NCBI GenBank assembly: GCA_038825875.1
Contig: JAWBOS010000003.1
Span: forward strand, 1,786 to 65,785
Source: Candidatus Woesearchaeota archaeon
Lineage (GTDB): Archaea > Nanobdellota > Nanobdellia > Woesearchaeales > JAWBMQ01
Reading direction: 5' to 3'
Length of the DNA: 64,000 nt
Positions 9,224 to 57,313 of this stretch are shown here, piece by piece. The position numbers and the translations under genes are program-made. Every line of letters starts with the position of its first letter. The stretch's first letter is position 1. The notes below the pieces were generated by a model, which was not told the DNA's origin, made no database searches, and saw only the letters and a program-made list of their open reading frames with translations.

Positions 9224-9295
9224 GCTCCGGTGGTGTAACGGTTAGCATAGAGGCCTGTCGAGCCTCTGACCCGGGTTCAAATCCCGGCCGGAGCG
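9224..9295 (+). tRNA. tRNA-Asp (anticodon GUC)
   Basis: Cloverleaf read by eye. The acceptor stem is GCTCCGG/CCGGAGC. The anticodon stem-loop gaggc-ctGTCga-gcctc gives anticodon GUC. The T-arm is GGGTTCAAATCCC. No CCA is encoded. Confidence 0.85.
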
Positions 9296-9300
9296 CTTTT

Positions 9301-9374
9301 GAGTCCGTAGCTCAGGCTGGTAGAGCACTAGGCTTTTAACCTAGGGGTCGGGGGTTCAAATCCCCTCGGACTCA
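9301..9374 (+). tRNA. tRNA-Lys (anticodon UUU)
   Basis: The acceptor stem is GAGTCCG/CGGACTC. The D-arm is GCTCAGGCTGGTAGAGC. The anticodon stem-loop ctagg-ctTTTaa-cctag gives anticodon UUU. The T-arm is GGGGGTTCAAATCCCC. Confidence 0.85.
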
Positions 9375-9585
9375 TTGAGATATGAATGAGATTAAAAAAA
9401 GGAATAACAAAATGAATGCTTGCTTTGTCAATATTTCACGTCTGTATAAAACCTTCTCAGAATTTAAAATTCATTCACATTTTTACAGAGATCTTGAAAA
9501 AATCCAACTTCGTAATCCTCTAAAATGTTGTAATTTTTAAGTTTATATTCCATAATTTCATATTTTATTTAGAGGTGCTCAGAAA

Positions 9586-19435: not shown

Positions 19436-19915
19436 ATGATTGAGCGTACATTGGTTTTAATAAAACCTGATGGAATTGAGAGAGGTTTAATTGGAAAAAT
19501 TATTGAAAGATTTGAAAATGTAGGCTTGAAAATTGTTGCAGCAAAAATGGTAAAGATTGATCAAGAGTTTGCAAGAAAGCATTATTGGGAGCATGTGGAA
19601 AAACCATTTTATCAATTTATAGAAAAGTACATTACCTCAGGACCAGTTTTGGCTTTGGTTTTAGAGGGATTGCATGCAGTAGAAGTTGTTAGAAAATTAG
19701 TAGGCCCGACAGAACCAAGAAAAGCACAACCAGGAACAATAAGAGGAGATTTTTCGCATGTAAGTTATGCGTATGCAGATAACAAGAAAATGGCAGTTAA
19801 GAATTTAATTCATGCAAGTGATAGCCTAGAAAATGCTAAATATGAGATTAGTTTGTGGTTCAAACCTGAAGAAATTATAGAGTACGAATCTGTTCATGAA
19901 AAGCATATTTTTTAA
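19436..19915 (+). CDS. ndk: Nucleoside diphosphate kinase
   Basis: ERTLVLIKPDG, the catalytic His context NLIHASDS, and a size of 159 aa all fit NDK. Confidence 0.9.
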   Translation: MIERTLVLIKPDGIERGLIGKIIERFENVGLKIVAAKMVKIDQEFARKHYWEHVEKPFYQFIEKYITSGPVLALVLEGLHAVEVVRKLVGPTEPRKAQPGTIRGDFSHVSYAYADNKKMAVKNLIHASDSLENAKYEISLWFKPEEIIEYESVHEKHIF

Positions 19916-43961: not shown

Positions 43962-44642
43962 ATGGAAAACGAAAATTTTGAAAATTATATTTTGAAGTAT
44001 AAGAATCTAATTTTTTTCGGTTCTTCGCATGTATCTAAAAAAGGATATCATATAATAAATAGAATCTTTGATAATTATAAAATTGATGCAGTTGCTTTAG
44101 AACTTGATCTTGGAAGATTTGTTGCTTTAGTTTCAGACCAAAAACCAACACTTTTTAGAGTTTTTTCAATTATGGATATAATTGTATATTTTTTGGCAAA
44201 GATTCAGTACGATTTAGCTAAAAAAATAGGAACAGACGTTGCTTTAGATATGAAACTTGCAGTTAAAAAATGTATAACTGAGAATTTGCCAATTTATCTG
44301 ATTGATCAACCAATGTCTTTTACTTTGAAAAGATTAAGAAAACACATCACATTTAGATTTTTTATTAAAGTTATCAAAGATTTTCTTAGGGGAGAAAAGA
44401 TAAAATTTTTGGTAGATGATTTTTTGGATTTATCTTATGATGAAATAGAAAAGGTTTTGGATTTGATGAGAAAAAGATATCCTGAACTCTATACACCATT
44501 GCTAGAGGAAAGAAATAGGTACATGGCAAAGAAGCTTAAGAATTTGTTAAACTCATCAGAAACTATACTTGTAATCGTTGGAAAAGCACATGTTCCAGGA
44601 ATTTTAAAAGATCTAGAACAACTTAATCAAAAGAATCCTTAA
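43962..44642 (+). CDS. TraB/PrgY-family protein
   Basis: FFGSSHVS resembles the GTAHVS motif, and LVIVGKAHVPGI resembles VVGAGHLxGI. The size is 226 aa. Confidence 0.55.
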   Translation: MENENFENYILKYKNLIFFGSSHVSKKGYHIINRIFDNYKIDAVALELDLGRFVALVSDQKPTLFRVFSIMDIIVYFLAKIQYDLAKKIGTDVALDMKLAVKKCITENLPIYLIDQPMSFTLKRLRKHITFRFFIKVIKDFLRGEKIKFLVDDFLDLSYDEIEKVLDLMRKRYPELYTPLLEERNRYMAKKLKNLLNSSETILVIVGKAHVPGILKDLEQLNQKNP

Positions 44643-46473
44643 TTTCAACAGTATTTATGTTTTTTGAAACACTTCTTATCTCTTTACTTATTTCTTTTTC
44701 TTCATTTTCAGATAGATGATTTGTTTTTAGAATTATTTTAAATCGTCCACTTTCTGCAGAAGCATCCACAGCTTGTAACTTTACTTTTTCTCTTATCTTT
44801 GAAAGTATCTTTAAGAGAATTCCATCTTCATCCTTACCATAGATGTATATTTTTGAAAATCTTTGTTTCCATTTTAATGGTTCTTTTTTGAAGATTGGAA
44901 GTATGTTTTGACAATTTTCTCTGTGAACAACTTCACCAGTTTTTGTGTGAACAAGAACTATTGGTTCTCCATATTTGATATTACTGCAACAACCAGCAAT
45001 CTTCAAATCCTTGTTATGGTCTATTAGTTTTTTGATGGCTACTGAAGTTTCTTCCTTCTTGCTTTTTTTGCTCATTCCTAGTATTCCTCTTATCATTGAT
45101 TTTACACTGTTACTTTTAACAATAGATAACCACTTTTCATTTATTTGAGGTTTTGGACTTGTAACGATTTCTACAATGTCTCCTGATTTTAGTTCTGTAT
45201 TTAGTGGCATTTTTTGTCCATTTATCTTTGCATATTGAGCATGAATTCCAATATCTGTGTGAACCTTAAATGCAAAATCTAAAGCAGTTCCACCTTTTGG
45301 AAGTTCAATAGGATCACCTTTTGGGGTGAAAACGAAAATTTTTTCTTCAAATGCGGAAAATTTAGGCTTATTACTTAATATGGGAAGAATGGAAATGATT
45401 TGTTTATTCCAAAAGAAAAATTTATCTAGTTTATCTGCTTCTATATTTTTATATTTCCAGTGGGCGGCTACACCATATTCTGCAAAATAATGCATATCCT
45501 CTGTTCTGATCTGAATCTCAAAAGGTTTTCCCTTGTAGTAAAAACAATTGTGCAAACTTTTATAACCATTAGGCTTTGGATGTTGAATGTAATCCTTAAA
45601 TCTTCCAGGTATTTCTTCAAATTTATCCTTCATAATTTCCATTGCTAAATAACACTCTTCCACAGTTTTTGTTATTATCCTTAATGCAATAAAGTCATAA
45701 ATTTCATCTAATTTTTTTCCACTCTCTTCTAATTTTTTCAATACACTATAAAGATGCTTTATTCTTCCTTCAATTCTGTGTTGAGGAAAAAGGTTTAAGA
45801 GGATATTATGCAATTCTTTTAGCAAAACATCTGCCTCTTTATATCTTTGGTTTATGTCTTTGTTTATTTTTTCATAAACTTCAGGATATAGAATCTTTAG
45901 TGGGATGTCTTCTAAACTGACTTTTAGAGCATTAATTCCTAATTTGTGTGCTATAGGAGCATAAATCTCTAGGGTTTCCTTTGCTATTTGGATTTGTCTT
46001 TCCTGTGGTAAGTATTGAATTGTTTTCAAATTATGAACCCTATTTGCTAACCATATTATGAGCGTTCTGAAATCCTTTAAGCCAGCTATTAGTAGAGTTC
46101 TTTTAAGATTTAGAGAATAATTATAGTCTTCTGCTCTCTTTTTTAAATCGTTTTTTTCGTGTAAAAGCTGAAGTAATTCATAAACTTCAGGATCCTTATT
46201 TTTTATACTTTCTATCAATTTTTGACTACAGTGATGTAAAAGTGCAGAGTATATTGTTTGAGGATCTGAATTTAAATCATGGACGATTTTACTAACAGCA
46301 AGAGAATGACAAATTGTTGGGGCTCCTGAATGTCTTTTTGAATCCTTTAAATCATTATCTGCCAAAATATAGTATTCCTTTAGCTTTTCTAATTCTTGTT
46401 TGTTTAATAAAGTAAAGTAAATTTTGAGTTCATCAGGTTCGAGATAAATTTCATTCTCATTGTATTTTATCAT
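44623..46473 (-). CDS. Full-length RelA/SpoT homologue (RSH, a (p)ppGpp synthetase) with a degenerate HD hydrolase motif, plus TGS and C-terminal regulatory domains.
   Basis: The synthetase core GRIKHLYSVLKKL...IALRIITKTVEECY...IPGRFKDYIQHPKPNGYKSLH...EIQIRTEDMHYFAEYGVAAHWKYK matches Rel/RelA. The TGS domain FVFTPKGDPIELPKGGTALDFAFKVHTDIG is present. The N-terminal HD region has RHSGAPTICHSLAV, but the HD dyad is changed to HH (ALLHHCSQ). Confidence 0.8.
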   Translation of the reverse strand: MIKYNENEIYLEPDELKIYFTLLNKQELEKLKEYYILADNDLKDSKRHSGAPTICHSLAVSKIVHDLNSDPQTIYSALLHHCSQKLIESIKNKDPEVYELLQLLHEKNDLKKRAEDYNYSLNLKRTLLIAGLKDFRTLIIWLANRVHNLKTIQYLPQERQIQIAKETLEIYAPIAHKLGINALKVSLEDIPLKILYPEVYEKINKDINQRYKEADVLLKELHNILLNLFPQHRIEGRIKHLYSVLKKLEESGKKLDEIYDFIALRIITKTVEECYLAMEIMKDKFEEIPGRFKDYIQHPKPNGYKSLHNCFYYKGKPFEIQIRTEDMHYFAEYGVAAHWKYKNIEADKLDKFFFWNKQIISILPILSNKPKFSAFEEKIFVFTPKGDPIELPKGGTALDFAFKVHTDIGIHAQYAKINGQKMPLNTELKSGDIVEIVTSPKPQINEKWLSIVKSNSVKSMIRGILGMSKKSKKEETSVAIKKLIDHNKDLKIAGCCSNIKYGEPIVLVHTKTGEVVHRENCQNILPIFKKEPLKWKQRFSKIYIYGKDEDGILLKILSKIREKVKLQAVDASAESGRFKIILKTNHLSENEEKEISKEIRSVSKNINTVEIKDSFD

Positions 46474-46476
46474 TTT

Positions 46477-47934
46477 TTATTCTCTTTTTTCAGGTTTTAT
46501 GGGTGGGAATGGAATAGCATCTTTTATTGAGTCTGTGTTAATAAGGATCATCACAAGTCTATCTATTCCAAATCCCAAACCACCAGTAGGAGGCATTCCT
46601 GTTTCAATTGCTTCTAAAAAGTCATAATCTAAAGGCATTGCTTCTTCATCGCCTTTTTTTCTATTTTCTTCTTGTTCTAAAAATCTCTGCTTTTGATCAA
46701 GAGGATCATTCAGTTCTGAATATGCGTTTGCTATCTCTCTTCCTGCAATAAACAATTCAAATCTTTCGACTAAGGTAGGATCTTTTCTGTGAACCTTTGT
46801 TAGGGGAGAAACCTCTTTTGGATAGTCCATTACAATTGTTGGTTGAATTAAATGTTCTTCTACAAAGTTTTCAAATACTTCATTAATTAAAACACCTCTT
46901 GGAGTATCTATGTCTAAAAATACATCTTTCTCTTGGAGTAATTCCCGCAATTCCTGATCTGTCATTTTGTCTATGTCTATTTTTGCATACTTTTTTATTG
47001 CATCTTTCATGGTAATCCTTTCAAATTTACTGAAATCAAGCTCATAATCTAAGTATTTGAATTTATAAGTTCCTTTTATTTTCAGAACAATCTTTTTGAA
47101 CAATTCTTCGATCATGTTCATCATATCATAGTAATCAGCATATGCCATGTACCATTCTATCATTGTAAATTCAGGACTATGTCTTGTGTCATAGCCTTCA
47201 TTTCTAAAGTTTTTTGTAATCTCAAATACCTTTTCATAACCACCAATTATAAGTCTTTTTAAATATAACTCTGGGGAAATTTTCAGGTAAAAATCGCAAT
47301 CGAGCGCATTGAAGTGAGTCGTGAATGGTCGTGCGTTTGCTCCTCCATAAACTGGTTGAAGAATTGGCGTTTCTAACTCAATAAAACCCCTTTCATATAA
47401 AAATTCCCTAGTCATGCGGATTACTTCATGTCTTATTTTGAAATTTTCTCTTGTGGGCCAATTCATTATTAAATCTAAATATCTTTTCCTGTATTTCAAT
47501 TCCTCATCTGTGAGAGAGTGATACTTCTCTGGTAGAGGTCTTGTAGATTTGCATAGAATCTCGAAACTTTTAGCGAAAATACTTATTTCTCCTGTTTTTG
47601 TTTTTCCTACATTTCCATGAACGCCTATCCAATCTCCGAGGTCTAGATATTTTAGAAGATCATAGTTTGTGGTTGAATCTTTTTTAAATACAATTTGTAA
47701 ATCTGCAAACTCATCTCTTATAGTAACAAAAGTAATTTTTCCCATCTCTCTAAATAGCATTATTCTACCTGCAACAGATTCTGTTTGTTCTGTGATCTTA
47801 TTACTTTCAATTTCCTTAAATTCGTTTTTGATTTGAGCATTGTTTTTTGTTTTTACAAATTTATAGGGATAGGGATTTATTCCTAGCTCTCTTAATTTGT
47901 TTAATTTTTCGATTCTTGTATGAATAATATCCAT
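46477..47934 (-). CDS. lysS: Lysyl-tRNA synthetase, class II
   Basis: The N-terminal OB-fold anticodon-binding region (VAGRIMLFREMGKITFVTIRDEF) and class II motifs 1-3 (ELETPILQP..., FRNEG, GGLGFGIDRLVM) are present. The length is 485 aa. Confidence 0.85.
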   Translation of the reverse strand: MDIIHTRIEKLNKLRELGINPYPYKFVKTKNNAQIKNEFKEIESNKITEQTESVAGRIMLFREMGKITFVTIRDEFADLQIVFKKDSTTNYDLLKYLDLGDWIGVHGNVGKTKTGEISIFAKSFEILCKSTRPLPEKYHSLTDEELKYRKRYLDLIMNWPTRENFKIRHEVIRMTREFLYERGFIELETPILQPVYGGANARPFTTHFNALDCDFYLKISPELYLKRLIIGGYEKVFEITKNFRNEGYDTRHSPEFTMIEWYMAYADYYDMMNMIEELFKKIVLKIKGTYKFKYLDYELDFSKFERITMKDAIKKYAKIDIDKMTDQELRELLQEKDVFLDIDTPRGVLINEVFENFVEEHLIQPTIVMDYPKEVSPLTKVHRKDPTLVERFELFIAGREIANAYSELNDPLDQKQRFLEQEENRKKGDEEAMPLDYDFLEAIETGMPPTGGLGFGIDRLVMILINTDSIKDAIPFPPIKPEKRE

Positions 47935-48042: not shown

Positions 48043-49383
48043 TCAATAGATATAGTTGTTTTTAATGGCTTCGGAGTATTCCTTTTCTGATGATTCTATC
48101 TGTTCTTTTAGAGAAACCTTAACTTTTTCAATTGGAACTTTTAAATATGTTTCTGCGGGAACTTTTTGCTTATTGAGAATGTGAGGATTATGTTCTTTTA
48201 AGATATGCGAATCAATGCCATATTTTTTTGATAACTCTTCCCAGGATGTTGGTTTTTCTAAGAAATAATGGGAATATATAGTTTTTTCATATTTTTTCTC
48301 TAGATATCTTGGAATAATTTCATGCCAAGAAATACAACCAATTATATATTTTTTCCCGCTATTTTTGAATTCAGGATACGTTTCTTGAAGAGTTAAATCT
48401 TTGATTAGATCTATTAATTTTATATCATATTTCTTTATAATTTCCGCGTTTATGTTTTCAGGATTAATATTTTCTTTGTAAAAGGTTTTTAGATGAGTTG
48501 AAATCATCCTTTTTACCTTATTTTCACCAAGATGATAAGCTAAAACAGTTAGATCCCATCTATATAGTCTGTTGTTTAATCTTCGTAGATATTGGAGTGC
48601 TGAGTCTATACTTTTCTCTGGATGAAATCTTTCTTCTACATCATTTGTTACTTTCATTCCCATTAACCATGCAGTACTGAGGCTTATTTGATATATTCCT
48701 TTATCATTTGATTGCTTGTTTACTGATTTTATGGTTCCATCAGTTTCATAAAGCATAATTCCAATTGCTGCAGGAAGTGGAATATTGTATTGAACACATT
48801 TTTTGAAAATATGATCATAGTATTGGTTTAGCAATCTCATCCTTAAGTCTATTCCTTTTTCATATCCTAAAAGTCTTTTTTCATATGACTTTACTTCTTC
48901 ATATAACCACTTTACTTCATCTAAGAAATAATCTCCCAAAAAGATAGAATACTTCTTTTGGAATTCTTCCACATCAGAGGTTTGAATGAAATATTTCTTT
49001 AACAGCGAGGATTCTTGAGAATTATTGGCTATATCTTCCAAAGTGTAGGTTTTACTTAAAGGTTCATTTGGTTCTTTTATTTCAGGAAATAATTTTTTAT
49101 CGTGGAAAAATTTTTCTAGTAGTTCATTAATAAAATTTTTAAAATCTTGATTTGCTTTTTCAAAATGTTTTTTAATTTGATCATAAGTTTTGTCAAGCTT
49201 CTCTGAAAAAGGAGCAACAATTTTAGATCCTCTATCTAAAAACCATTCATAGGATTCATTCATTTTTCTCTTAAGTTCTTCAGGCGGTATTTTAGAACAG
49301 AGATGAATTGTTGAAAGTATTCCTATTGTAGCTAAGGTAGCTCTAATTATTCCCTTTCCTTGAGATTGTTTGTTACTTTTCAT
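48043..49383 (-). CDS. Membrane-anchored or secreted lytic-transglycosylase (SLT) domain protein with a C-terminal LysM-like domain.
   Basis: The N-terminal hydrophobic anchor is GIIRATLATIGILSTIHLC. The SLT-like motifs are IGIMLYETDG (catalytic E-S/T), KGIYQISLSTAWLMG (GLMQ-like) and LAYHLGENKV (AYNxG-like). The C-terminal YFLEKPTSWEELSKKYGIDSHILKEHNPHILNKQKVPAETYLKVP fits the LysM consensus. Confidence 0.5.
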   Translation of the reverse strand: MKSNKQSQGKGIIRATLATIGILSTIHLCSKIPPEELKRKMNESYEWFLDRGSKIVAPFSEKLDKTYDQIKKHFEKANQDFKNFINELLEKFFHDKKLFPEIKEPNEPLSKTYTLEDIANNSQESSLLKKYFIQTSDVEEFQKKYSIFLGDYFLDEVKWLYEEVKSYEKRLLGYEKGIDLRMRLLNQYYDHIFKKCVQYNIPLPAAIGIMLYETDGTIKSVNKQSNDKGIYQISLSTAWLMGMKVTNDVEERFHPEKSIDSALQYLRRLNNRLYRWDLTVLAYHLGENKVKRMISTHLKTFYKENINPENINAEIIKKYDIKLIDLIKDLTLQETYPEFKNSGKKYIIGCISWHEIIPRYLEKKYEKTIYSHYFLEKPTSWEELSKKYGIDSHILKEHNPHILNKQKVPAETYLKVPIEKVKVSLKEQIESSEKEYSEAIKNNYIY

Positions 49384-49539: not shown

Positions 49540-49755
49540 GTGAATACTATGGTTGGAATTGATATAAATCAAATTTTGTTAATAGTGGTATTAGCAGCTT
49601 TGTTAGCAATAATGTATGTGTTGAGAGTTTTAATAATTATGGAGAGATCTATTGCTAATATTGAGTTGCATATGGAGAAAATCGTTGAAAAGATTTATGA
49701 AGAGGAACTAAAGGTTGAGAAGGAACTTAAAAAAGTTGAAAAACAAATCAAATAA
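49540..49755 (+). CDS. Small single-pass membrane protein (hypothetical)
   Basis: 71 aa. The TM segment ILLIVVLAALLAIMYVLRVLII is followed by a K/E-rich tail. AGAGGTGA RBS lies upstream. Confidence 0.4.
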   Translation: MNTMVGIDINQILLIVVLAALLAIMYVLRVLIIMERSIANIELHMEKIVEKIYEEELKVEKELKKVEKQIK

Positions 49756-49789: not shown

Positions 49790-50728
49790 ATGGTATTTGA
49801 GGCTTTTTTTAAGACTGTAGAGGAGATTAAACAGTTAAAAATTCAAGGGGCTCAAAATATCGCAGAATCTGGGCTAATTGCACTAAGAAATGCTTTTTTT
49901 GAAGCTGTTTCTTTAGGATATTCATCTGAAGAATTAAAAAATAAAGTGTTTGAAATGAAAACAATTCTAGAATCTGCAAGACCTACAGAGCCTTTGCTTA
50001 GAAATGTTCTTAATTATGTATGGTCAATTATTAAGGATGATGAAGATCTCTTCTTGTTGAAAAAGGATTTTGAGTTAGCATGTCAGGAGATTATGAATCA
50101 TTTTAGAGAAAGCGAAGAAAAAATAGCAGAAATTGGATCAAATCTAATAAAAAATGGTATGATTGTATTTACTCATTGCCATAGCTCTACTGTTGTAAAA
50201 TTACTCAAAAAAGCATACGATAAGGGAATAAGATTTGAGGTTTACAATACTGAAACAAGACCTCTTTATCAAGGAAGAATTACAGCTAAGGAATTGGCAG
50301 ATTACAATATAAAAGTTACACATTTTGTAGATTCTGCAGCAAGAATTGCTTTAAAAAATGCAGATCTTTTCTTGTTTGGATGTGATGCAATAACCGCTCA
50401 AGGAAAGATTGTGAATAAGATAGGTACCGAAATGTTTGCTGAGATAGCTCAATTGTACGGAGTAGAAGTTTATACTGTTACAGACTCCTGGAAGTTTGAT
50501 CCATTAACATTCTTTAATCCAGAAAAAATTGAAATCCGAAGTCCATATGAGGTTTGGCCAGATTGTCCAAAAAACGTGGAAATTTTAAATTATGCGTTTG
50601 AAATGGTAGATAAGGATCTTATTGATGGAATTGTATGTGAGTTTGGAATAATTGGAGTAGATGAGTTAATTTTTGAACTTAAAGAGCATTATCCCTTCTT
50701 CTTTCAGATGTATTCAAAAAAGGTGTGA
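49790..50728 (+). CDS. eIF-2B alpha/beta/delta-family protein; candidate ribose-1,5-bisphosphate isomerase (AMP pathway partner of form III RuBisCO)
   Basis: 312 aa. The eIF2B/MtnA-family fold pattern is present (VFTHCHSSTVVKLL...GCDAITAQG...). The specific function is assigned by inference from the rbcL in the same window. Confidence 0.55.
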   Translation: MVFEAFFKTVEEIKQLKIQGAQNIAESGLIALRNAFFEAVSLGYSSEELKNKVFEMKTILESARPTEPLLRNVLNYVWSIIKDDEDLFLLKKDFELACQEIMNHFRESEEKIAEIGSNLIKNGMIVFTHCHSSTVVKLLKKAYDKGIRFEVYNTETRPLYQGRITAKELADYNIKVTHFVDSAARIALKNADLFLFGCDAITAQGKIVNKIGTEMFAEIAQLYGVEVYTVTDSWKFDPLTFFNPEKIEIRSPYEVWPDCPKNVEILNYAFEMVDKDLIDGIVCEFGIIGVDELIFELKEHYPFFFQMYSKKV

Positions 50729-51552
50729 AGATGTTGGTTACTTCAAAAGAACTTTTGAATCAAGCAAAGGTAAAGAAAATAGCTATTGGTGCATTTAATA
50801 TCAATAATTTTGAATTTGCAAAAGCAATTATATTAGCAGCAGAGGAAATGAAACAGGATGTGATTGTGCAAACAACTCAAAACGCAATCGATTATGCTGG
50901 TTTTAAAGTATTGTCTTCGATCGTGAGAAATCTGGCAGAAGAAACCGATGTTAGAGTAGTTTTACATTTAGATCATGGAAAGGATTTGAAGTATGTTCTT
51001 AATGCTTTGAAATTTGGATGGACGAGTGTAATGATAGATGGATCACATTTACCATATTCTCAGAATGTTCAAATAACCAAAACTGTTGCAACTTTAGCAC
51101 ATCAATTAGATGTTCCTGTTGAGGGCGAACTTGGTCCAATTCCCAAAGCAAGTGAAAAAATTACAGAATTTACAGATCCAAATTTAGTAGAGGATTTTGT
51201 TAATACAACAGGAATTGATTTTTTGGCGATAGCGATTGGAAATGCTCATGGAATTTATACTGTCTCTAATCCACAATTGAATTTTTCTGTTCTTAAAGAA
51301 ATAAGAAGGAAAGTAAATATACCTCTAGTTATGCATGGTGGTTCAGGTATTCCTGATGAACAAATAAGAAGAGCAATTAAAGAGGGAATTTGTAAGATCA
51401 ATTTTGATACAGAGTTAAGGATGGCCTTTAGTGCTTCTCTTGAAAACTATTTCAAAGAAAAACCTGGAGATTATAATGTAAGAACATATCTTAGTGCTGC
51501 AATCCAAGCAATCAAAGAAAAAGTCAAAGAAAAAATGAACTTGTTGAGATAA
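50725..51552 (+). CDS. fba: Class II (metal-dependent) fructose/tagatose-bisphosphate aldolase
   Basis: The N-terminus LLNQAKVKKIAIGAFNINNFEFAKAIILAAEEMKQDVIVQTTQ matches class II aldolases. VVLHLDHG (a metal-binding His) and HGGSGIPDE are present. The gene overlaps the preceding gene by 4 nt. Confidence 0.8.
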   Translation: MKMLVTSKELLNQAKVKKIAIGAFNINNFEFAKAIILAAEEMKQDVIVQTTQNAIDYAGFKVLSSIVRNLAEETDVRVVLHLDHGKDLKYVLNALKFGWTSVMIDGSHLPYSQNVQITKTVATLAHQLDVPVEGELGPIPKASEKITEFTDPNLVEDFVNTTGIDFLAIAIGNAHGIYTVSNPQLNFSVLKEIRRKVNIPLVMHGGSGIPDEQIRRAIKEGICKINFDTELRMAFSASLENYFKEKPGDYNVRTYLSAAIQAIKEKVKEKMNLLR

Positions 51553-54849: not shown

Positions 54850-55395
54850 ATGGCAATATCTCGCGAGGAATTAGAAAATTATCTTCGAAAAAGAAGAGAG
54901 ATTTATGGATATAGAGAAAGGATAAAAAAGATCAGACCAAAAGATAAAGAAGAAAAAAAGACCGATGAAAAAAGAGAACAAGTTCCTAAGCTTTCAATTC
55001 TTGATAAGATTAGAGGATTAATAAAACCAAAGGTAAGAAAATTGGAAATTTCTCCAGAAATAAAGGATGCGGATGAGATGATTGAAGAAATAGAAAACAT
55101 GGCAGTTTCTTCTGATGAATTCAGAAAAGAAAGAGTTGCAAAAAAATGCTTTTTTTCTCAAATAAGAAAACTTTTTGTAAGAAAACAAGATATGATTGAA
55201 ATTCCAGAAAAGAAAACGCTTGATTTGGATTATGAAGAGATAAGACAGGCTTTTAGAATAGCAAATTCATTGATTAAAAAATTGCCTCCTGCTGTGTTAA
55301 AGGCATTTAAGGAATCAGATAGCTATAAGATTTATTATAACACTATGAAAAAATTAGATCTGGTAAAAAAATCTGAAGATGAAATACACCAATAA
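54850..55395 (+). CDS. K/E-rich hypothetical protein
   Basis: 181-aa highly charged ORF (KDKEEKKTDEKREQ...). AAGGTGA lies upstream. Confidence 0.35.
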   Translation: MAISREELENYLRKRREIYGYRERIKKIRPKDKEEKKTDEKREQVPKLSILDKIRGLIKPKVRKLEISPEIKDADEMIEEIENMAVSSDEFRKERVAKKCFFSQIRKLFVRKQDMIEIPEKKTLDLDYEEIRQAFRIANSLIKKLPPAVLKAFKESDSYKIYYNTMKKLDLVKKSEDEIHQ

Positions 55396-57313
55396 AGCTT
55401 TAATTTTTGGAATTTTGATTTTTTTTATGTTTTCTGTGAGTGCTGAGTTGATATCTCTGTGTGATTATAACAATAAGAGTTTGAGCAATTATTCAATTAA
55501 TGCAGAAATTAAAATATTGGCTTCAAATAAAATTATGAGCGGAGATGTTGTTCCAGAAATTTATGTTTACTCTAACAATACGAGAATAGGAGTATTAAAT
55601 GATATTGGTAAAGGATGTGATGATGTTAAGGAAGATGGCGTTTACTGTGGATATATAAAGGCAAGTGATATTGTAGGAAGTATTGTTGTAGTTTATTCAA
55701 AGATAGCAAACGAATCCTTAAACTTTACCATTCTACAGGATAATTTTTCCACATATGAAATTAAATGTTTTCCAGATGAAAAAGATTCAAACAATGCAAT
55801 TTGTAGAATATTATCAAATGATACTTTTGTGCTAAATGGGAATATTATTACGGAAATTTCAGGATTGCAAGGATCTTTGAGGGATTTTACGTTTTATCAA
55901 TACACTTCTCTTTGCGGAAAAAGAAAAAGAACAATCTCAATTTTGTTTCCTGATTTTCAACCACCAAAACCGGTAGAGCTTAATTGTACTACTGCTAGTA
56001 ATAATGTTGTTCAAATTTCATGGAGTAAATCTGAAGATAATACTGGAATAAAATATTATGAAGTGTTTAAGTGCTCATTTCCTGTTTCAATGAAGGATGA
56101 AGAGAAGATTACTTCTTTTGTAGATAAAGCAAAATGTAATTTGACAAGTTTTAAGATTTTTAAGGAAAACGAGGAGTTAAGATTTGAGGATTATTGCGAT
56201 AATTGCGAGATCTATTATAAAGTTAGAGTTTATGATATTTTTAATAATTCAGTTGACTCAAAAATTTGTAGAACTTTTTCAGATTCTTCAAAGCCTAATG
56301 TAGAATATTTCTTGCAGTATCCTGATAAAATCTTAATATTGTATGGCGATGCTCATACAGTTTTTTATGATAAACTTTATCCTTTCAAAAACGGCATGAG
56401 TTTGAATTATGATAAAAATTTGTCAATTATCTTCTATGATAAGTTTGGAAATTTTGTTATGCTGAAAGTTAATGAAGTTGAAGAATTTCCTTTTTTAGAT
56501 GTTATTAATGATAAAGTTAAGAATGCAGGATTTTATTCTAACGAGAGTGTTTATAGGAAAGATATGAAAAAGGAATCATTTGGAAGATATTATTATGTGA
56601 TTAATCCTCCCTATGTTTTTAGATATGAAATTAGTACTAATCATTATACACAGAAGAATTCTTTTGTCTTTATTCCAAAGGCCAAGAATTTTACAATAGA
56701 TGGTCATTATAGATATTTTAAGTTGGAAAATGATGAAGTAGATGCAATATTGATTTCAAACGCAACTCTTATTATAACAGAAAATAACGTTAGATACAGA
56801 TATGACTTGGAATCAGATGAAAATATTTTGGATTTTTTAACAAATCTCAGAGCAGATTCATATAATGATAAGGAAGAATTCTTGATTGCAATTAATAAAT
56901 CTTTAGGGGATTATTATTTGGATAATTATTCATTGAAAAGGAAATCCACATCTCTTTTAGAATTGACCGGATTTTTTGTGAAAGGAGATAAATTGAGAGG
57001 CCTTTTTTCTGGCATTTCTTTAATTCTTCTTATTGTAGTAATCATTGGAATTATTTTTCTCTATATTTTGATTTCATTTTTAAAAATTCAGTTTAGACAA
57101 GTTAATTATAGGAAGAATTTTCTCAAAAAAATGGAAAACAAAAGAAAGGAAGAACAACAACTGTTGAAGAAATTGGAAGAAAAAAAGAAAAAGGATGAAT
57201 TAAAGAAGCAAGCGGAAAATGAGTTTATAAAAAGGGCAGTTGAAGAAGAAAAGAAAATTGAAGAAAAAGAGGTAATGAAAAAAGGTTTCAGATATAGGAG
57301 AAATGAATTTTAA
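55379..57313 (+). CDS. Type I membrane surface protein. It has a signal peptide, a Cys- and N-sequon-rich ectodomain with an FN3-like segment, a C-terminal TM helix and a K/E-rich cytoplasmic tail.
   Basis: The N-terminal segment is ALIFGILIFFMFSVSA. Many NxS/T sequons are present. ELNCTTASNNVVQISWSKSEDNTGIKYYEVFKC is FN3-like. The C-terminal TM helix is GISLILLIVVIIGIIFLYILISFL, followed by KKMENKRKEEQQLLKKLEEKKKKDELKK. Confidence 0.5.
   Translation: MKYTNKALIFGILIFFMFSVSAELISLCDYNNKSLSNYSINAEIKILASNKIMSGDVVPEIYVYSNNTRIGVLNDIGKGCDDVKEDGVYCGYIKASDIVGSIVVVYSKIANESLNFTILQDNFSTYEIKCFPDEKDSNNAICRILSNDTFVLNGNIITEISGLQGSLRDFTFYQYTSLCGKRKRTISILFPDFQPPKPVELNCTTASNNVVQISWSKSEDNTGIKYYEVFKCSFPVSMKDEEKITSFVDKAKCNLTSFKIFKENEELRFEDYCDNCEIYYKVRVYDIFNNSVDSKICRTFSDSSKPNVEYFLQYPDKILILYGDAHTVFYDKLYPFKNGMSLNYDKNLSIIFYDKFGNFVMLKVNEVEEFPFLDVINDKVKNAGFYSNESVYRKDMKKESFGRYYYVINPPYVFRYEISTNHYTQKNSFVFIPKAKNFTIDGHYRYFKLENDEVDAILISNATLIITENNVRYRYDLESDENILDFLTNLRADSYNDKEEFLIAINKSLGDYYLDNYSLKRKSTSLLELTGFFVKGDKLRGLFSGISLILLIVVIIGIIFLYILISFLKIQFRQVNYRKNFLKKMENKRKEEQQLLKKLEEKKKKDELKKQAENEFIKRAVEEEKKIEEKEVMKKGFRYRRNEF

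What the first reader, a model, noticed from the sequence alone, without database searches (positions are those of the whole stretch)
48043..49383. A peptidoglycan-targeting enzyme (SLT lytic transglycosylase plus LysM) in an archaeal genome
The protein has an N-terminal membrane anchor or signal. Its SLT-like catalytic region is IGIMLYETDG / GIYQISLSTAWLMG / AYHLGENKV. The C-terminal segment fits the LysM consensus (…WEELSKKYGIDSHILKEHNP…VPAETYLKVP). The other genes in this window are archaeal and give no evidence of murein synthesis. A murein-degrading enzyme therefore suggests interaction with a bacterial partner or prey, or with pseudomurein-like polymers. Together with the other bacterial-type genes here, this is consistent with the episymbiotic lifestyle proposed for some DPANN archaea.
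Basis: partly seen in the sequence, partly recalled or inferred. Interest (0 to 1): 0.75.

Follow-up and report, generated by a model that had tools for sequence, protein, structure and literature searches.

The report
MltD-like murein-cutting enzyme in Woesearchaeota
A tiny DPANN archaeon (Woesearchaeota) encodes a membrane-anchored enzyme built like the bacterial cell-wall cutter MltD, so it probably attacks bacterial cell walls, but enzymes of this kind in these archaea are already published and this protein is already annotated as one.

Summary
ORF 48043-49383 (-) encodes a 446-aa protein with an N-terminal membrane helix and a significant Pfam SLT domain (E=6e-16). All family-1 lytic-transglycosylase motifs are present: E213, G229xxQ232, A282-Y-x-x-G286 and Y346.

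Pfam does not detect a LysM domain in this sequence. The segment is still a genuine but degenerate LysM. Six of ten family members hit Pfam LysM in the same columns, a leave-one-out HMM scores it 36.5 bits (best of 2000 shuffles: 12.4), and the AlphaFold model has a β-α-α-β fold there.

The contig is archaeal (split RpoB/RpoA operon, Topo VI, CDP-archaeol synthase). The gene sits in conserved synteny in other Woesearchaeota MAGs and evolves much faster than its neighbours (dN 0.215 against 0.016 or less; dN/dS about 0.2).

Action on bacterial murein is inferred, not shown. GH23/SLT enzymes in Woesearchaeota and Pacearchaeota have been reported since 2013-2015, and the exact protein is in NCBI. 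This is a new member of a known kind, of modest interest.

The parts
48043..49383 (-). Complete ORF of 446 aa plus stop codon. Membrane-anchored MltD-like (LT family 1D) lytic transglycosylase.
49294..49362 (-). Residues 8-30: N-terminal transmembrane helix or signal anchor, preceded by a Lys/Arg-rich start. Predicted N-in, C-out.
   Evidence: Highest hydropathy window is residues 11-29. AF2 helix at 8-30. All full-length relatives have an N-terminal hydrophobic segment. Topology is inferred from the positive-inside rule. No lipobox (IHLC does not fit).
49102..49284 (-). Residues 34-94: one long predicted helix, a possible stalk. Poorly conserved among relatives.
   Evidence: AF2 helix at 34-94, pLDDT about 46-86. 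No alignment to P0002 in this region. The stalk function is inference.
49042..49101 (-). Residues 95-114: low-confidence, probably flexible linker.
   Evidence: pLDDT below 50 at 99-113.
48811..49041 (-). Residues 115-191: helical extension N-terminal to the Pfam SLT domain. Corresponds to the extra helices that are a hallmark of LT family 1D.
   Evidence: AF2 helices at 115-199 with pLDDT rising from about 56-63 at residues 115-130 to above 90 from about residue 140. The family profile aligns from profile position 126 to PaMltD chain residue 50 onward. The hallmark is described in PMC11327851.
48496..48810 (-). Residues 192-296: SLT catalytic core. Motif I is E213-T214, motif II is G229-I-Y-Q232, motif III is A282-Y-H-L-G286.
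   Evidence: Pfam PF01464, E=6e-16. Conservation: E213 in 51/52; G229, Q232, R252, Y283 and G286 in 52/52.
48745..48747 (-). Codon of E213, the predicted catalytic general acid/base.
   Evidence: Translates to E. Aligns with the Glu of the ES motif in PaMltD, which is E144.
48295..48495 (-). Residues 297-363: post-SLT helical region holding a DPANN-specific insert of about 20-28 residues and the conserved G343-x-x-Y346-I motif. The Tyr is predicted to be the counterpart of PaMltD Y249, which hydrogen-bonds the catalytic Glu.
   Evidence: Y346 is conserved in 45/52, with F in 5. The family profile aligns 'YVqKvlA' to PaMltD 'YVPKLLA'. The role of Y249 is from PMC11327851. The equivalence is inferred from the alignment and was not checked in 3D.
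48112..48294 (-). Residues 364-424: degenerate LysM module (β-α-α-β), in the position of the sequence-cryptic LysM1 of MltD.
48046..48111 (-). Residues 425-446: C-terminal amphipathic helix, function unknown.
   Evidence: AF2 helix at 425-441. Weakly conserved 'Y' near the end in relatives.

Best explanation
The gene encodes a type-II membrane-anchored, outward-facing lytic transglycosylase of the MltD type (LT family 1D, CAZy GH23). It belongs to the core chromosome of a Woesearchaeota (DPANN) archaeon.

Architecture: an N-terminal TM helix, then a long helix and flexible linker (a stalk), then the catalytic module, then one LysM packed on that module.

Proposed mechanism, by homology. E213 protonates the beta-1,4 MurNAc-GlcNAc glycosidic oxygen and then deprotonates the C6-OH of MurNAc. 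This cuts the glycan strand without water and leaves a 1,6-anhydroMurNAc end. Y346 orients the Glu. The GIYQ clamping loop and the N-terminal helices form a long sugar-binding groove. The degenerate LysM acts mainly as a structural or groove-extending module, like LysM1 of MltD.

The archaeon shows no murein genes in this window, so the substrate is most likely foreign bacterial peptidoglycan. That could be at a contact site with a bacterial host or prey, or in cell-wall debris.

Shown here: domain identity, conserved catalytic motifs, the MltD-like fold, archaeal genomic context, conserved synteny, and purifying selection combined with fast divergence.

Inferred: membrane topology, enzymatic activity, substrate and ecological role.
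For: Domain identity:
- SLT domain, E=6e-16.
- NCBIfam MltD partial hit, E=1.5e-5.
- The family profile hits PaMltD at E=8e-28, colinear over the catalytic domain, the YVxK motif and LysM1.
- Catalytic and structural motifs are conserved.
- Family 1D hallmarks are taken from PMC11327851.

Genomic context:
- The window is archaeal and no mur genes were found.
- The same gene order occurs in two other Woesearchaeota MAGs: Top6A / FBA / IF-2B / 71-76 aa ORF / SLT / LysRS / RelA-SpoT / TraB / MTase / Trm1 / RFC.
- GC and GC3 are typical of the genome.
- There are no phage relatives.

Selection: dN/dS of about 0.2 between L001 and L002 shows the gene is under selection.

Distribution: close relatives lie in Woesearchaeota and Ca. 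Nanoanaerosalina MAGs.

Literature: the same interpretation is published for other DPANN GH23 proteins.
Against: - No biochemical data exist for any archaeal member.
- The residue after the catalytic Glu is Thr, where 39 of 52 homologues have Ser. The near-invariant Asp at position 250 is Glu here.
- The LysM has lost its GDT and GQ residues, so glycan binding by this module is doubtful.
- Only 64 kb of the genome was seen, so murein or a murein-like polymer made by the organism cannot be excluded.
- The same family occurs in Ca. Nanoanaerosalina, whose predicted hosts are haloarchaea without murein. That fits a bacterial target less well.
Confidence: 0.7

Rival explanations
1. The enzyme acts on a non-murein GlcNAc-containing glycan, such as chitin or chito-oligosaccharides, or glycans of an archaeal host or of its own envelope. 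It would serve nutrition or attachment to an archaeal partner rather than a bacterial one.
Confidence: 0.13
2. The protein remodels a murein-like wall made by the archaeon itself. That would be a housekeeping autolysin role, as MltD has in bacteria.
For: The gene has a fixed chromosomal position among housekeeping genes in three MAGs. Its composition is typical of the genome. Only 64 kb of the genome could be inspected.
Against: No Mur ligase, MraY, MurG or PBP genes were found among about 50 ORFs scanned. CDP-archaeol synthase indicates an archaeal envelope. The literature describes murein transglycosylases as normally absent from Archaea and does not report murein synthesis in these lineages. 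A housekeeping autolysin would not be expected to diverge to 33-35% identity while its neighbours stay at 65-90%.
Confidence: 0.05
3. The protein is a catalytically dead adhesin. The SLT-LysM module only binds glycan and tethers the cell to a partner.
For: Substitutions at two near-invariant positions (S214T, D250E) and a degenerate LysM. Castelle et al. 2021 also consider an attachment role.
Against: The catalytic Glu and all invariant motif residues are retained: G229, Q232, R252, Y283, G286 and Y346. The substitutions are conservative. The gene is under purifying selection over the catalytic core, with dN/dS of 0.16-0.22.
Confidence: 0.05
4. The gene is a virus- or mobile-element-derived endolysin, or the contig is a bacterial contaminant or chimera.
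For: SLT domains are common in phage and conjugation systems. T7 gp16 is a weak PDB hit. The neighbouring genes are of bacterial type (LysRS class II, RelA/SpoT).
Against: tblastn finds nothing in 50,697 phage records. There are no integrase or phage genes nearby. The same contig carries the archaeal RNAP/ribosomal operon. Synteny is conserved across independent MAGs from different studies. GC3 matches the genome.
Confidence: 0.02

Closest known systems
MltD of Pseudomonas aeruginosa and E. coli (lytic transglycosylase family 1D, CAZy GH23; PDB 8rhe/8rhf/8rhi)
   Same: The catalytic module has the extra N-terminal helices. It has the E-S/T motif, the G-x-[WY]-Q clamping-loop motif, A-Y-x-x-G and the downstream YV Tyr. 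One sequence-cryptic LysM follows the catalytic domain directly and is colinear with LysM1. Membrane tethering is through the N-terminus, followed by a long tether.
   Different: Sequence identity is only about 16-18% in structural alignment. The anchor is a TM helix rather than a lipidated Cys. A long predicted helix takes the place of an unstructured tether. There are no mobile LysM2-4 modules. An insert of about 20-28 residues lies between motif III and the YV motif. The host is an archaeon with no evident murein.
Large extracellular murein-like transglycosylase proteins of Woesearchaeota and Pacearchaeota (fam00969, Castelle et al. 2021; AR20, Castelle 2015; GH23 in the Lake A MAGs, Vigneron et al. 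2022)
   Same: Same phyla, the same catalytic domain family (SLT/GH23), and the same proposed role of binding or degrading bacterial cell wall.
   Different: Those are described as large proteins, up to about 3000 aa. This one is a compact 446-aa MltD-like protein with a LysM. I did not test whether it falls inside fam00969. L001 and L002 carry a 727-aa protein with a weak SLT match that may be nearer to that class.
Bacteroidota-type MltD-like SLT proteins (P0003, 326 aa; neighbours include a T9SS Por_Secre_tail protein, an ECF sigma factor and Wzy)
   Same: SLT core plus a similarly degenerate C-terminal LysM-like segment ('WVELAKQNGISYYELRRLNPWI...IKIP') and an N-terminal hydrophobic segment.
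   Different: About 24-26% identity. It lacks the DPANN insert and the long N-terminal helix, and it comes from a bacterium that makes murein. The data are too thin to call it the donor lineage.
Archaeal peptidoglycan hydrolases shown to kill bacteria (Strock et al. 2025, PMC12352652)
   Same: The concept: archaea encode secreted murein-degrading enzymes with a binding domain plus a catalytic domain, aimed at bacteria.
   Different: In the passages I read, that paper discusses other catalytic classes, for example M23 zoocin-like enzymes in Halobacteriales. It mentions Woesearchaeota transglycosylases only by citation.

Membership tests
Pfam SLT (PF01464) / CAZy GH23 lytic transglycosylase family 1 | Significant match to the SLT profile above the curated cutoff | tested here: met
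   58.5 bits against a cutoff of 21.3, E=6e-16, residues 192-296
Pfam SLT (PF01464) / CAZy GH23 lytic transglycosylase family 1 | Catalytic Glu of motif I (E-S) | tested here: met
   E213 aligns with the Glu of the ES motif of PaMltD. Conserved in 51/52 homologues. The following residue is Thr instead of Ser (S in 39/52, N in 8/52), a conservative variant.
Pfam SLT (PF01464) / CAZy GH23 lytic transglycosylase family 1 | Motif II (G-L-[MW]-Q) and motif III (A-Y-N-x-G) | tested here: met
   G229-I-Y-Q232 and A282-Y-H-L-G286. G229, Q232, Y283 and G286 are invariant in 52/52.
Pfam SLT (PF01464) / CAZy GH23 lytic transglycosylase family 1 | Non-hydrolytic cleavage that produces 1,6-anhydroMurNAc | not testable with these tools
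   Needs an enzyme assay with LC-MS of the products
LT family 1D (MltD-like) | Extra N-terminal helical region that extends the active-site cleft | tested here: met
LT family 1D (MltD-like) | LysM module (LysM1) directly following and packed against the catalytic domain | tested here: inconclusive
LT family 1D (MltD-like) | Tyr that hydrogen-bonds the catalytic Glu (PaMltD Y249) | tested here: inconclusive
   Y346 lies in the conserved YV/YI motif, which aligns to PaMltD 'DYVPKLLA'. The 3D distance was not measured.
LT family 1D (MltD-like) | NCBIfam MltD equivalog (NF008050) above its cutoff | tested here: not met
   23.5 bits against a cutoff of 508, partial match only. It is not an orthologue of enterobacterial MltD. 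It lacks the additional LysM repeats.
Pfam LysM (PF01476) | Significant match of this sequence to the LysM profile | tested here: not met
   No hit even at E<=10. Only a SafA-type hit at E=0.027.
Pfam LysM (PF01476) | Homology to bona fide LysM domains via intermediates, plus the β-α-α-β fold | tested here: met
Pfam LysM (PF01476) | Glycan-binding loop residues (GDT...; ...G-Q) and GlcNAc binding | tested here: not met
   The window copy has KPT and AE at these places. P0004-P0008 keep GD[TS]L and G-x. Binding itself is not testable here.
DPANN large SLT proteins (fam00969, Castelle 2021) | Membership of that protein cluster; very large multidomain extracellular protein | not tested
At 446 aa this protein does not fit the 'large' description.

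The most novel reading that the evidence does not exclude
The compact TM-stalk-SLT-LysM proteins form a DPANN-specific, multi-copy family shared by Woesearchaeota and Nanoanaerosalinaceae. They sit at fixed chromosomal loci but are replaced or diversified far faster than the surrounding genome (dN 13-50 times that of the neighbours, with dS also raised). On this reading they are host-range determinants in an arms race with bacterial cell walls: the tool that opens the murein of a bacterial host. If so, some DPANN lineages now assumed to live on archaea, such as Nanoanaerosalinaceae, would actually have bacterial hosts or prey.
Probability: 0.2. Interest if true: 0.7.

Novelty: new member of a known kind. 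Interest (0 to 1): 0.3.

Why it matters
No Woesearchaeota has a known host. A surface-exposed, apparently active murein-cleaving enzyme in the core genome is one of the few concrete molecular handles for asking whether these archaea attach to, feed on or kill bacteria.

The idea is already in the literature (Rinke 2013 and Castelle 2015 as cited in PMC8204110; PMC9723730), so this locus does not open a new question.

This analysis adds four things:
- A precise assignment to LT family 1D, including MltD's cryptic LysM1.
- A small (446 aa) protein that should be practical to express, with a confident model. It would be a better assay candidate than the 3000-aa proteins described so far.
- Evidence that the gene is syntenic but evolves unusually fast.
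- The presence of the family in Nanoanaerosalinaceae, which the paper describing that family does not mention.

Tried and rejected
- Amino-sugar salvage link. The window's ROK-family protein and amidohydrolase were checked as possible NagK/NagA. The ROK match is weak and partial. The amidohydrolase is of the MTA/SAH-deaminase or chlorohydrolase type, not NagA. Rejected.
- Second SLT copy in the window. An SLT HMM run against all six-frame ORFs finds only this gene. L001 and L002 have three copies each.
- Viral origin. tblastn against phages found nothing.
- AFDB50 fold search for the organism distribution. The library was not available.
- The look-up of encoding contigs for the window protein itself. 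It is not on record, so the MAG accession and sampling site were not recovered.
- Donor lineage. Word-indexed searches returned very few relatives. The exhaustive search has no taxonomy, and only 2 of 10 clusters carried names. The single identified bacterial relative (P0003) is from a Bacteroidota-like context. No donor can be named.
- Literature on murein biosynthesis in Woesearchaeota. Nothing supports an endogenous wall.
- Lipoprotein anchoring. The residues before C29 (I-H-L-C) do not fit a lipobox, and the Cys is not conserved in relatives.
Full report
**1. The observation**

The quoted peptide strings are all present, at 212-216, 229-234, 282-290, 381-389 and 413-417. I checked the residue-to-coordinate mapping by translation.

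The N-terminus is a short Lys/Arg-rich stretch followed by the most hydrophobic segment of the protein (residues 11-29, Kyte-Doolittle mean 1.5). AlphaFold predicts a helix at 8-30. Every full-length relative has an equivalent N-terminal hydrophobic segment. The residues before Cys29 (I-H-L-C) do not fit a lipobox, and the Cys is not conserved. I read this as a signal anchor, N-in and C-out. That topology is an inference from the positive-inside rule.

**2. The catalytic domain**

Pfam SLT (PF01464) matches residues 192-296 with E=6e-16, 58.5 bits against a curated cutoff of 21.3. NCBIfam gives a partial match to the MltD model, far below its equivalog cutoff. The best PDB sequence hit is P. 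aeruginosa MltD (8rhe).

In that alignment the Glu of the query's 'YET' pairs with the Glu of the 'ES' motif. The MltD structure paper identifies this residue as the catalytic E144 (PMC11327851).

In a 52-sequence alignment of the query with its best relatives:
- E213 is kept in 51 of 52.
- G229, Q232, R252, Y283 and G286 are kept in 52 of 52.
- Y346 is kept in 45 of 52, with Phe in 5.

Y346 lies in a 'YV/YI' motif that the family profile aligns to PaMltD 'DYVPKLLA'. It is the likely counterpart of Y249, which hydrogen-bonds the catalytic Glu in PaMltD. This equivalence comes from the alignment and was not measured in 3D.

Two positions are unusual in the window protein: T214 (Ser in 39/52) and E250 (Asp in 51/52). 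Both changes are conservative.

**3. The LysM question**

Pfam LysM gives no hit even at E<=10. The only direct sign is an E=0.027 match to the LysM-type SafA model over residues 383-407. Four independent lines nevertheless show that the segment is a LysM.

- (a) The exhaustive search found a small set of full-length relatives (P0002, P0004-P0010) that align through residue ~420. In the alignment their C-terminal segments carry canonical LysM signatures, for example 'YRIQSGDTLSKISNTYGTSLDDLKKHNPNI..HVGQKLYVP'. Six of the ten members hit Pfam LysM, best E=4.4e-15.
- (b) An HMM built only from the relatives' LysM columns scores query residues 370-420 at 36.5 bits. The best of 2000 shuffled C-termini scores 12.4.
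- (c) The family profile hits solved LysM domains: Ecp6 2e-17, LytE 9e-14 and SafA 4e-10.

The window copy has lost the GDT and GQ loop residues (now KPT and AE). It is therefore a degenerate LysM, and its glycan binding is uncertain.

**4. The whole protein is an MltD-type (family 1D) core**

The AlphaFold model, built on a 52-sequence alignment, has mean pLDDT 87.4, with values above 93 from residue ~140 to ~430.

- Foldseek's six best PDB hits are all PaMltD, aligned over about 270 columns.

The MltD paper names the hallmarks of family 1D: an extra N-terminal helical region that lengthens the cleft, and an 'unpredicted' LysM1 packed tightly against the catalytic domain. Both are present here, as helices 115-199 before the Pfam SLT core and a sequence-cryptic LysM directly after the catalytic module. 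The family profile aligns colinearly with PaMltD through the catalytic domain, the YV motif and LysM1 (E=8e-28).

Differences from MltD:
- A TM helix instead of a lipidated Cys.
- A long predicted helix (34-94) plus a disordered linker (95-114) in place of MltD's unstructured tether.
- No mobile LysM2-4.
- An insert of about 20-28 residues between motif III and the YV motif.

**5. The genome is archaeal and the gene is native to it**

The window carries these archaeal genes:
- RpoH-RpoB''-RpoB'-RpoA'-RpoA''-NusA-S12-S7-NDK-EF2.
- Topo VI-A, Trm1 and RFC large and small subunits.
- aIF2-alpha, CDP-archaeol synthase, FtsZ and a Rad50-like ATPase.

None of the roughly 50 ORFs scanned is a murein-synthesis gene.

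The exact protein is in NCBI as 'transglycosylase SLT domain-containing protein [Candidatus Woesearchaeota archaeon]'.

In two other Woesearchaeota MAGs (L001 = GCA_038889815.1; L002 = isolate GXS_202007_bins_56) the gene order is the same: Top6A / class II FBA / IF-2B-like / small TM ORF / SLT / class II LysRS / RelA-SpoT / TraB / MTase / Trm1 / RFC.

The gene's GC (0.287) and GC3 (0.213) are typical for the window. tblastn finds nothing in 50,697 phage records. Recent transfer, viral origin and contamination are therefore all unlikely.

**6. A fast-evolving gene in a slow neighbourhood**

Against L001 and L002 the neighbours are 65-90% identical in protein: Top6A 90, LysRS 77, FBA 75-76, IF-2B 74, RelA/SpoT 65. 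The SLT protein in the same position is 33-35% identical, and its N-terminal ~120-135 residues do not align.

L001 and L002 are 85% identical in DNA. Between them:
- The neighbours are 96-100% identical in protein, with dN 0.00-0.016 and dS 0.11-0.36.
- The SLT orthologue is 67% identical, with dN 0.215, dS 0.99 and dN/dS 0.22.
- A second SLT paralogue has dN 0.094, and a 727-aa weak-SLT protein has dN 0.199.

So the gene is under purifying selection and is functional, yet it diverges 13-50 times faster in amino-acid-changing sites than its neighbours. The raised dS suggests either replacement by divergent alleles through recombination or saturation. I cannot tell which. This pattern is what one expects of surface proteins that meet another organism, but that reading is inference.

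The family is multi-copy. L001 and L002 hold three SLT-type genes each, and L003 and L005 (Ca. Nanoanaerosalina) hold two each. The window holds only one.

**7. Distribution**

Of 1390 representative proteins with E<=1e-3, only 13 reach 1e-10. The near-full-length matches with a known source come from Woesearchaeota MAGs, Ca. Nanoanaerosalina (Nanohaloarchaeota) and one 4.8-kb contig binned as Methanosarcinales.

The only bacterial relative I could place is P0003. It sits next to a T9SS-tail protein, an ECF sigma factor and Wzy, which suggests a Bacteroidota-like bacterium. No donor lineage can be named from these data.

The paper describing Nanoanaerosalinaceae does not mention transglycosylases or LysM. 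It predicts, weakly, haloarchaeal hosts.

**8. Mechanism**

The best-supported picture is as follows. A TM helix holds the protein in the archaeal membrane. The helix and linker carry the catalytic module outward. E213 performs the family-1 lytic transglycosylase reaction on beta-1,4 MurNAc-GlcNAc bonds, giving 1,6-anhydroMurNAc ends. The degenerate LysM serves as the structural LysM1 of family 1D.

The substrate is most likely bacterial murein, either of a host or prey at the contact site or of debris. I put the molecular identity at about 0.9 and the bacterial-murein role at about 0.6-0.65.

Rivals:
- A chitin-type or other GlcNAc glycan substrate. GH23 and LysM can handle these, and PaMltD binds chitotetraose.
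- An endogenous wall. No supporting genes were seen, but only 64 kb was inspected.
- A catalytically dead adhesin. All catalytic residues are kept.
- Viral origin or contamination. Synteny, composition and the lack of phage hits argue against it.
- Pseudomurein as substrate. This is unlikely from established chemistry: beta-1,3 linkages, talosaminuronic acid and resistance to lysozyme.

**9. Comparison with what is known, and novelty**

SLT/GH23 murein transglycosylases in DPANN archaea are an established observation.
- Castelle et al. 2021 describe them as widespread in small-genome Pacearchaeota and Woesearchaeota, propose binding or degradation of bacterial walls, and cite Rinke 2013 and Castelle 2015 for the first cases (PMC8204110).
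- Vigneron et al. 2022 build a 'vampiristic' predation hypothesis on them (PMC9723730).
- Later papers repeat the point. At least 11 papers in the library mention GH23 together with DPANN.

What is new here is detail: the assignment to LT family 1D with a cryptic LysM1, the compact TM-anchored architecture (the literature stresses very large proteins), the conserved locus with accelerated divergence, and the presence of the family in Nanoanaerosalinaceae. I rate this as a new member of a known kind, with interest of about 0.3.

**10. Limits**

- Model coordinates could not be inspected.
- The AFDB library was unavailable.
- The MAG accession of the window was not recovered.
- Taxonomy is missing for most homologues.

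Noticed in passing
window 44623-46473 (-): A long RelA/SpoT homologue (HD hydrolase, synthetase and TGS domains; TIGR00691 439.7 bits, just under its cutoff of 499) lies two genes from the SLT gene in an archaeal contig. It is 65% identical in a second Woesearchaeota MAG. To my knowledge, long RSH enzymes are typically bacterial.
   Followed up: partly
window 46477-47934 (-): The lysyl-tRNA synthetase is the bacterial-type class II enzyme (TIGR00499 lysS_bact, 608.9 bits, above its cutoff). It is conserved at 77% identity in L001.
   Followed up: partly
window 49790-51552 (+): A ribose-1,5-bisphosphate-isomerase-like (e2b2/IF-2B family) gene overlaps by 4 bp a class II (bacterial-type) fructose-bisphosphate aldolase. 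The pair is conserved in L001 and L002. This fits the nucleotide-salvage metabolism proposed for these archaea.
   Followed up: partly
window 49540-49755 (+): A 71-aa predicted membrane protein is transcribed divergently from the SLT gene. It is 78% identical in L001 and L002 and 100% identical between those two. No family match; function unknown.
   Followed up: partly
window 19436-19915 (+): A nucleoside diphosphate kinase gene is inserted between ribosomal protein S7 and EF-2 in the otherwise canonical archaeal RNAP/S12/S7/EF-2 operon.
   Followed up: no
window 55379-57313 (+): A 644-aa protein has an N-terminal signal-like segment, a C-terminal TM helix and a Lys/Glu-rich tail. It has no Pfam or NCBIfam match. 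It is a candidate surface protein of unknown function.
   Followed up: partly
L001 304-3637 and L002 954-4295: Beyond Top6A, both related Woesearchaeota loci carry a second SLT-LysM-type paralogue (367 aa) and a 727-aa protein with a weak SLT match. The window has neither at that place. It has small prefoldin-like ORFs, an L37Ae-like gene and tRNA-Pro there instead.
   Followed up: partly
L001 vs L002, SLT genes: Synonymous divergence at the SLT loci (dS 0.99 and 1.04; 0.37 for the paralogue) is well above that of the adjacent housekeeping genes (0.11-0.36). This hints at recombination with divergent alleles rather than only relaxed or positive selection.
   Followed up: partly
L003 401-8900 (Ca. 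Nanoanaerosalina): Two SLT-LysM paralogues flank a CARDB-domain protein, two MMPL/SecDF-like membrane proteins and a PadR regulator. The paper that describes this family does not mention transglycosylases.
   Followed up: partly
L004 (4.8-kb contig binned as Methanosarcinales): A full-length family member (30% identity) lies next to an RFC small-subunit gene. The contig is short, so the taxonomic label may be a binning error.
   Followed up: no
window 9224-9375 (+): tRNA-Asp(GTC) and tRNA-Lys(TTT) lie 3 bp apart, immediately upstream of the RpoH-RpoB operon.
   Followed up: no
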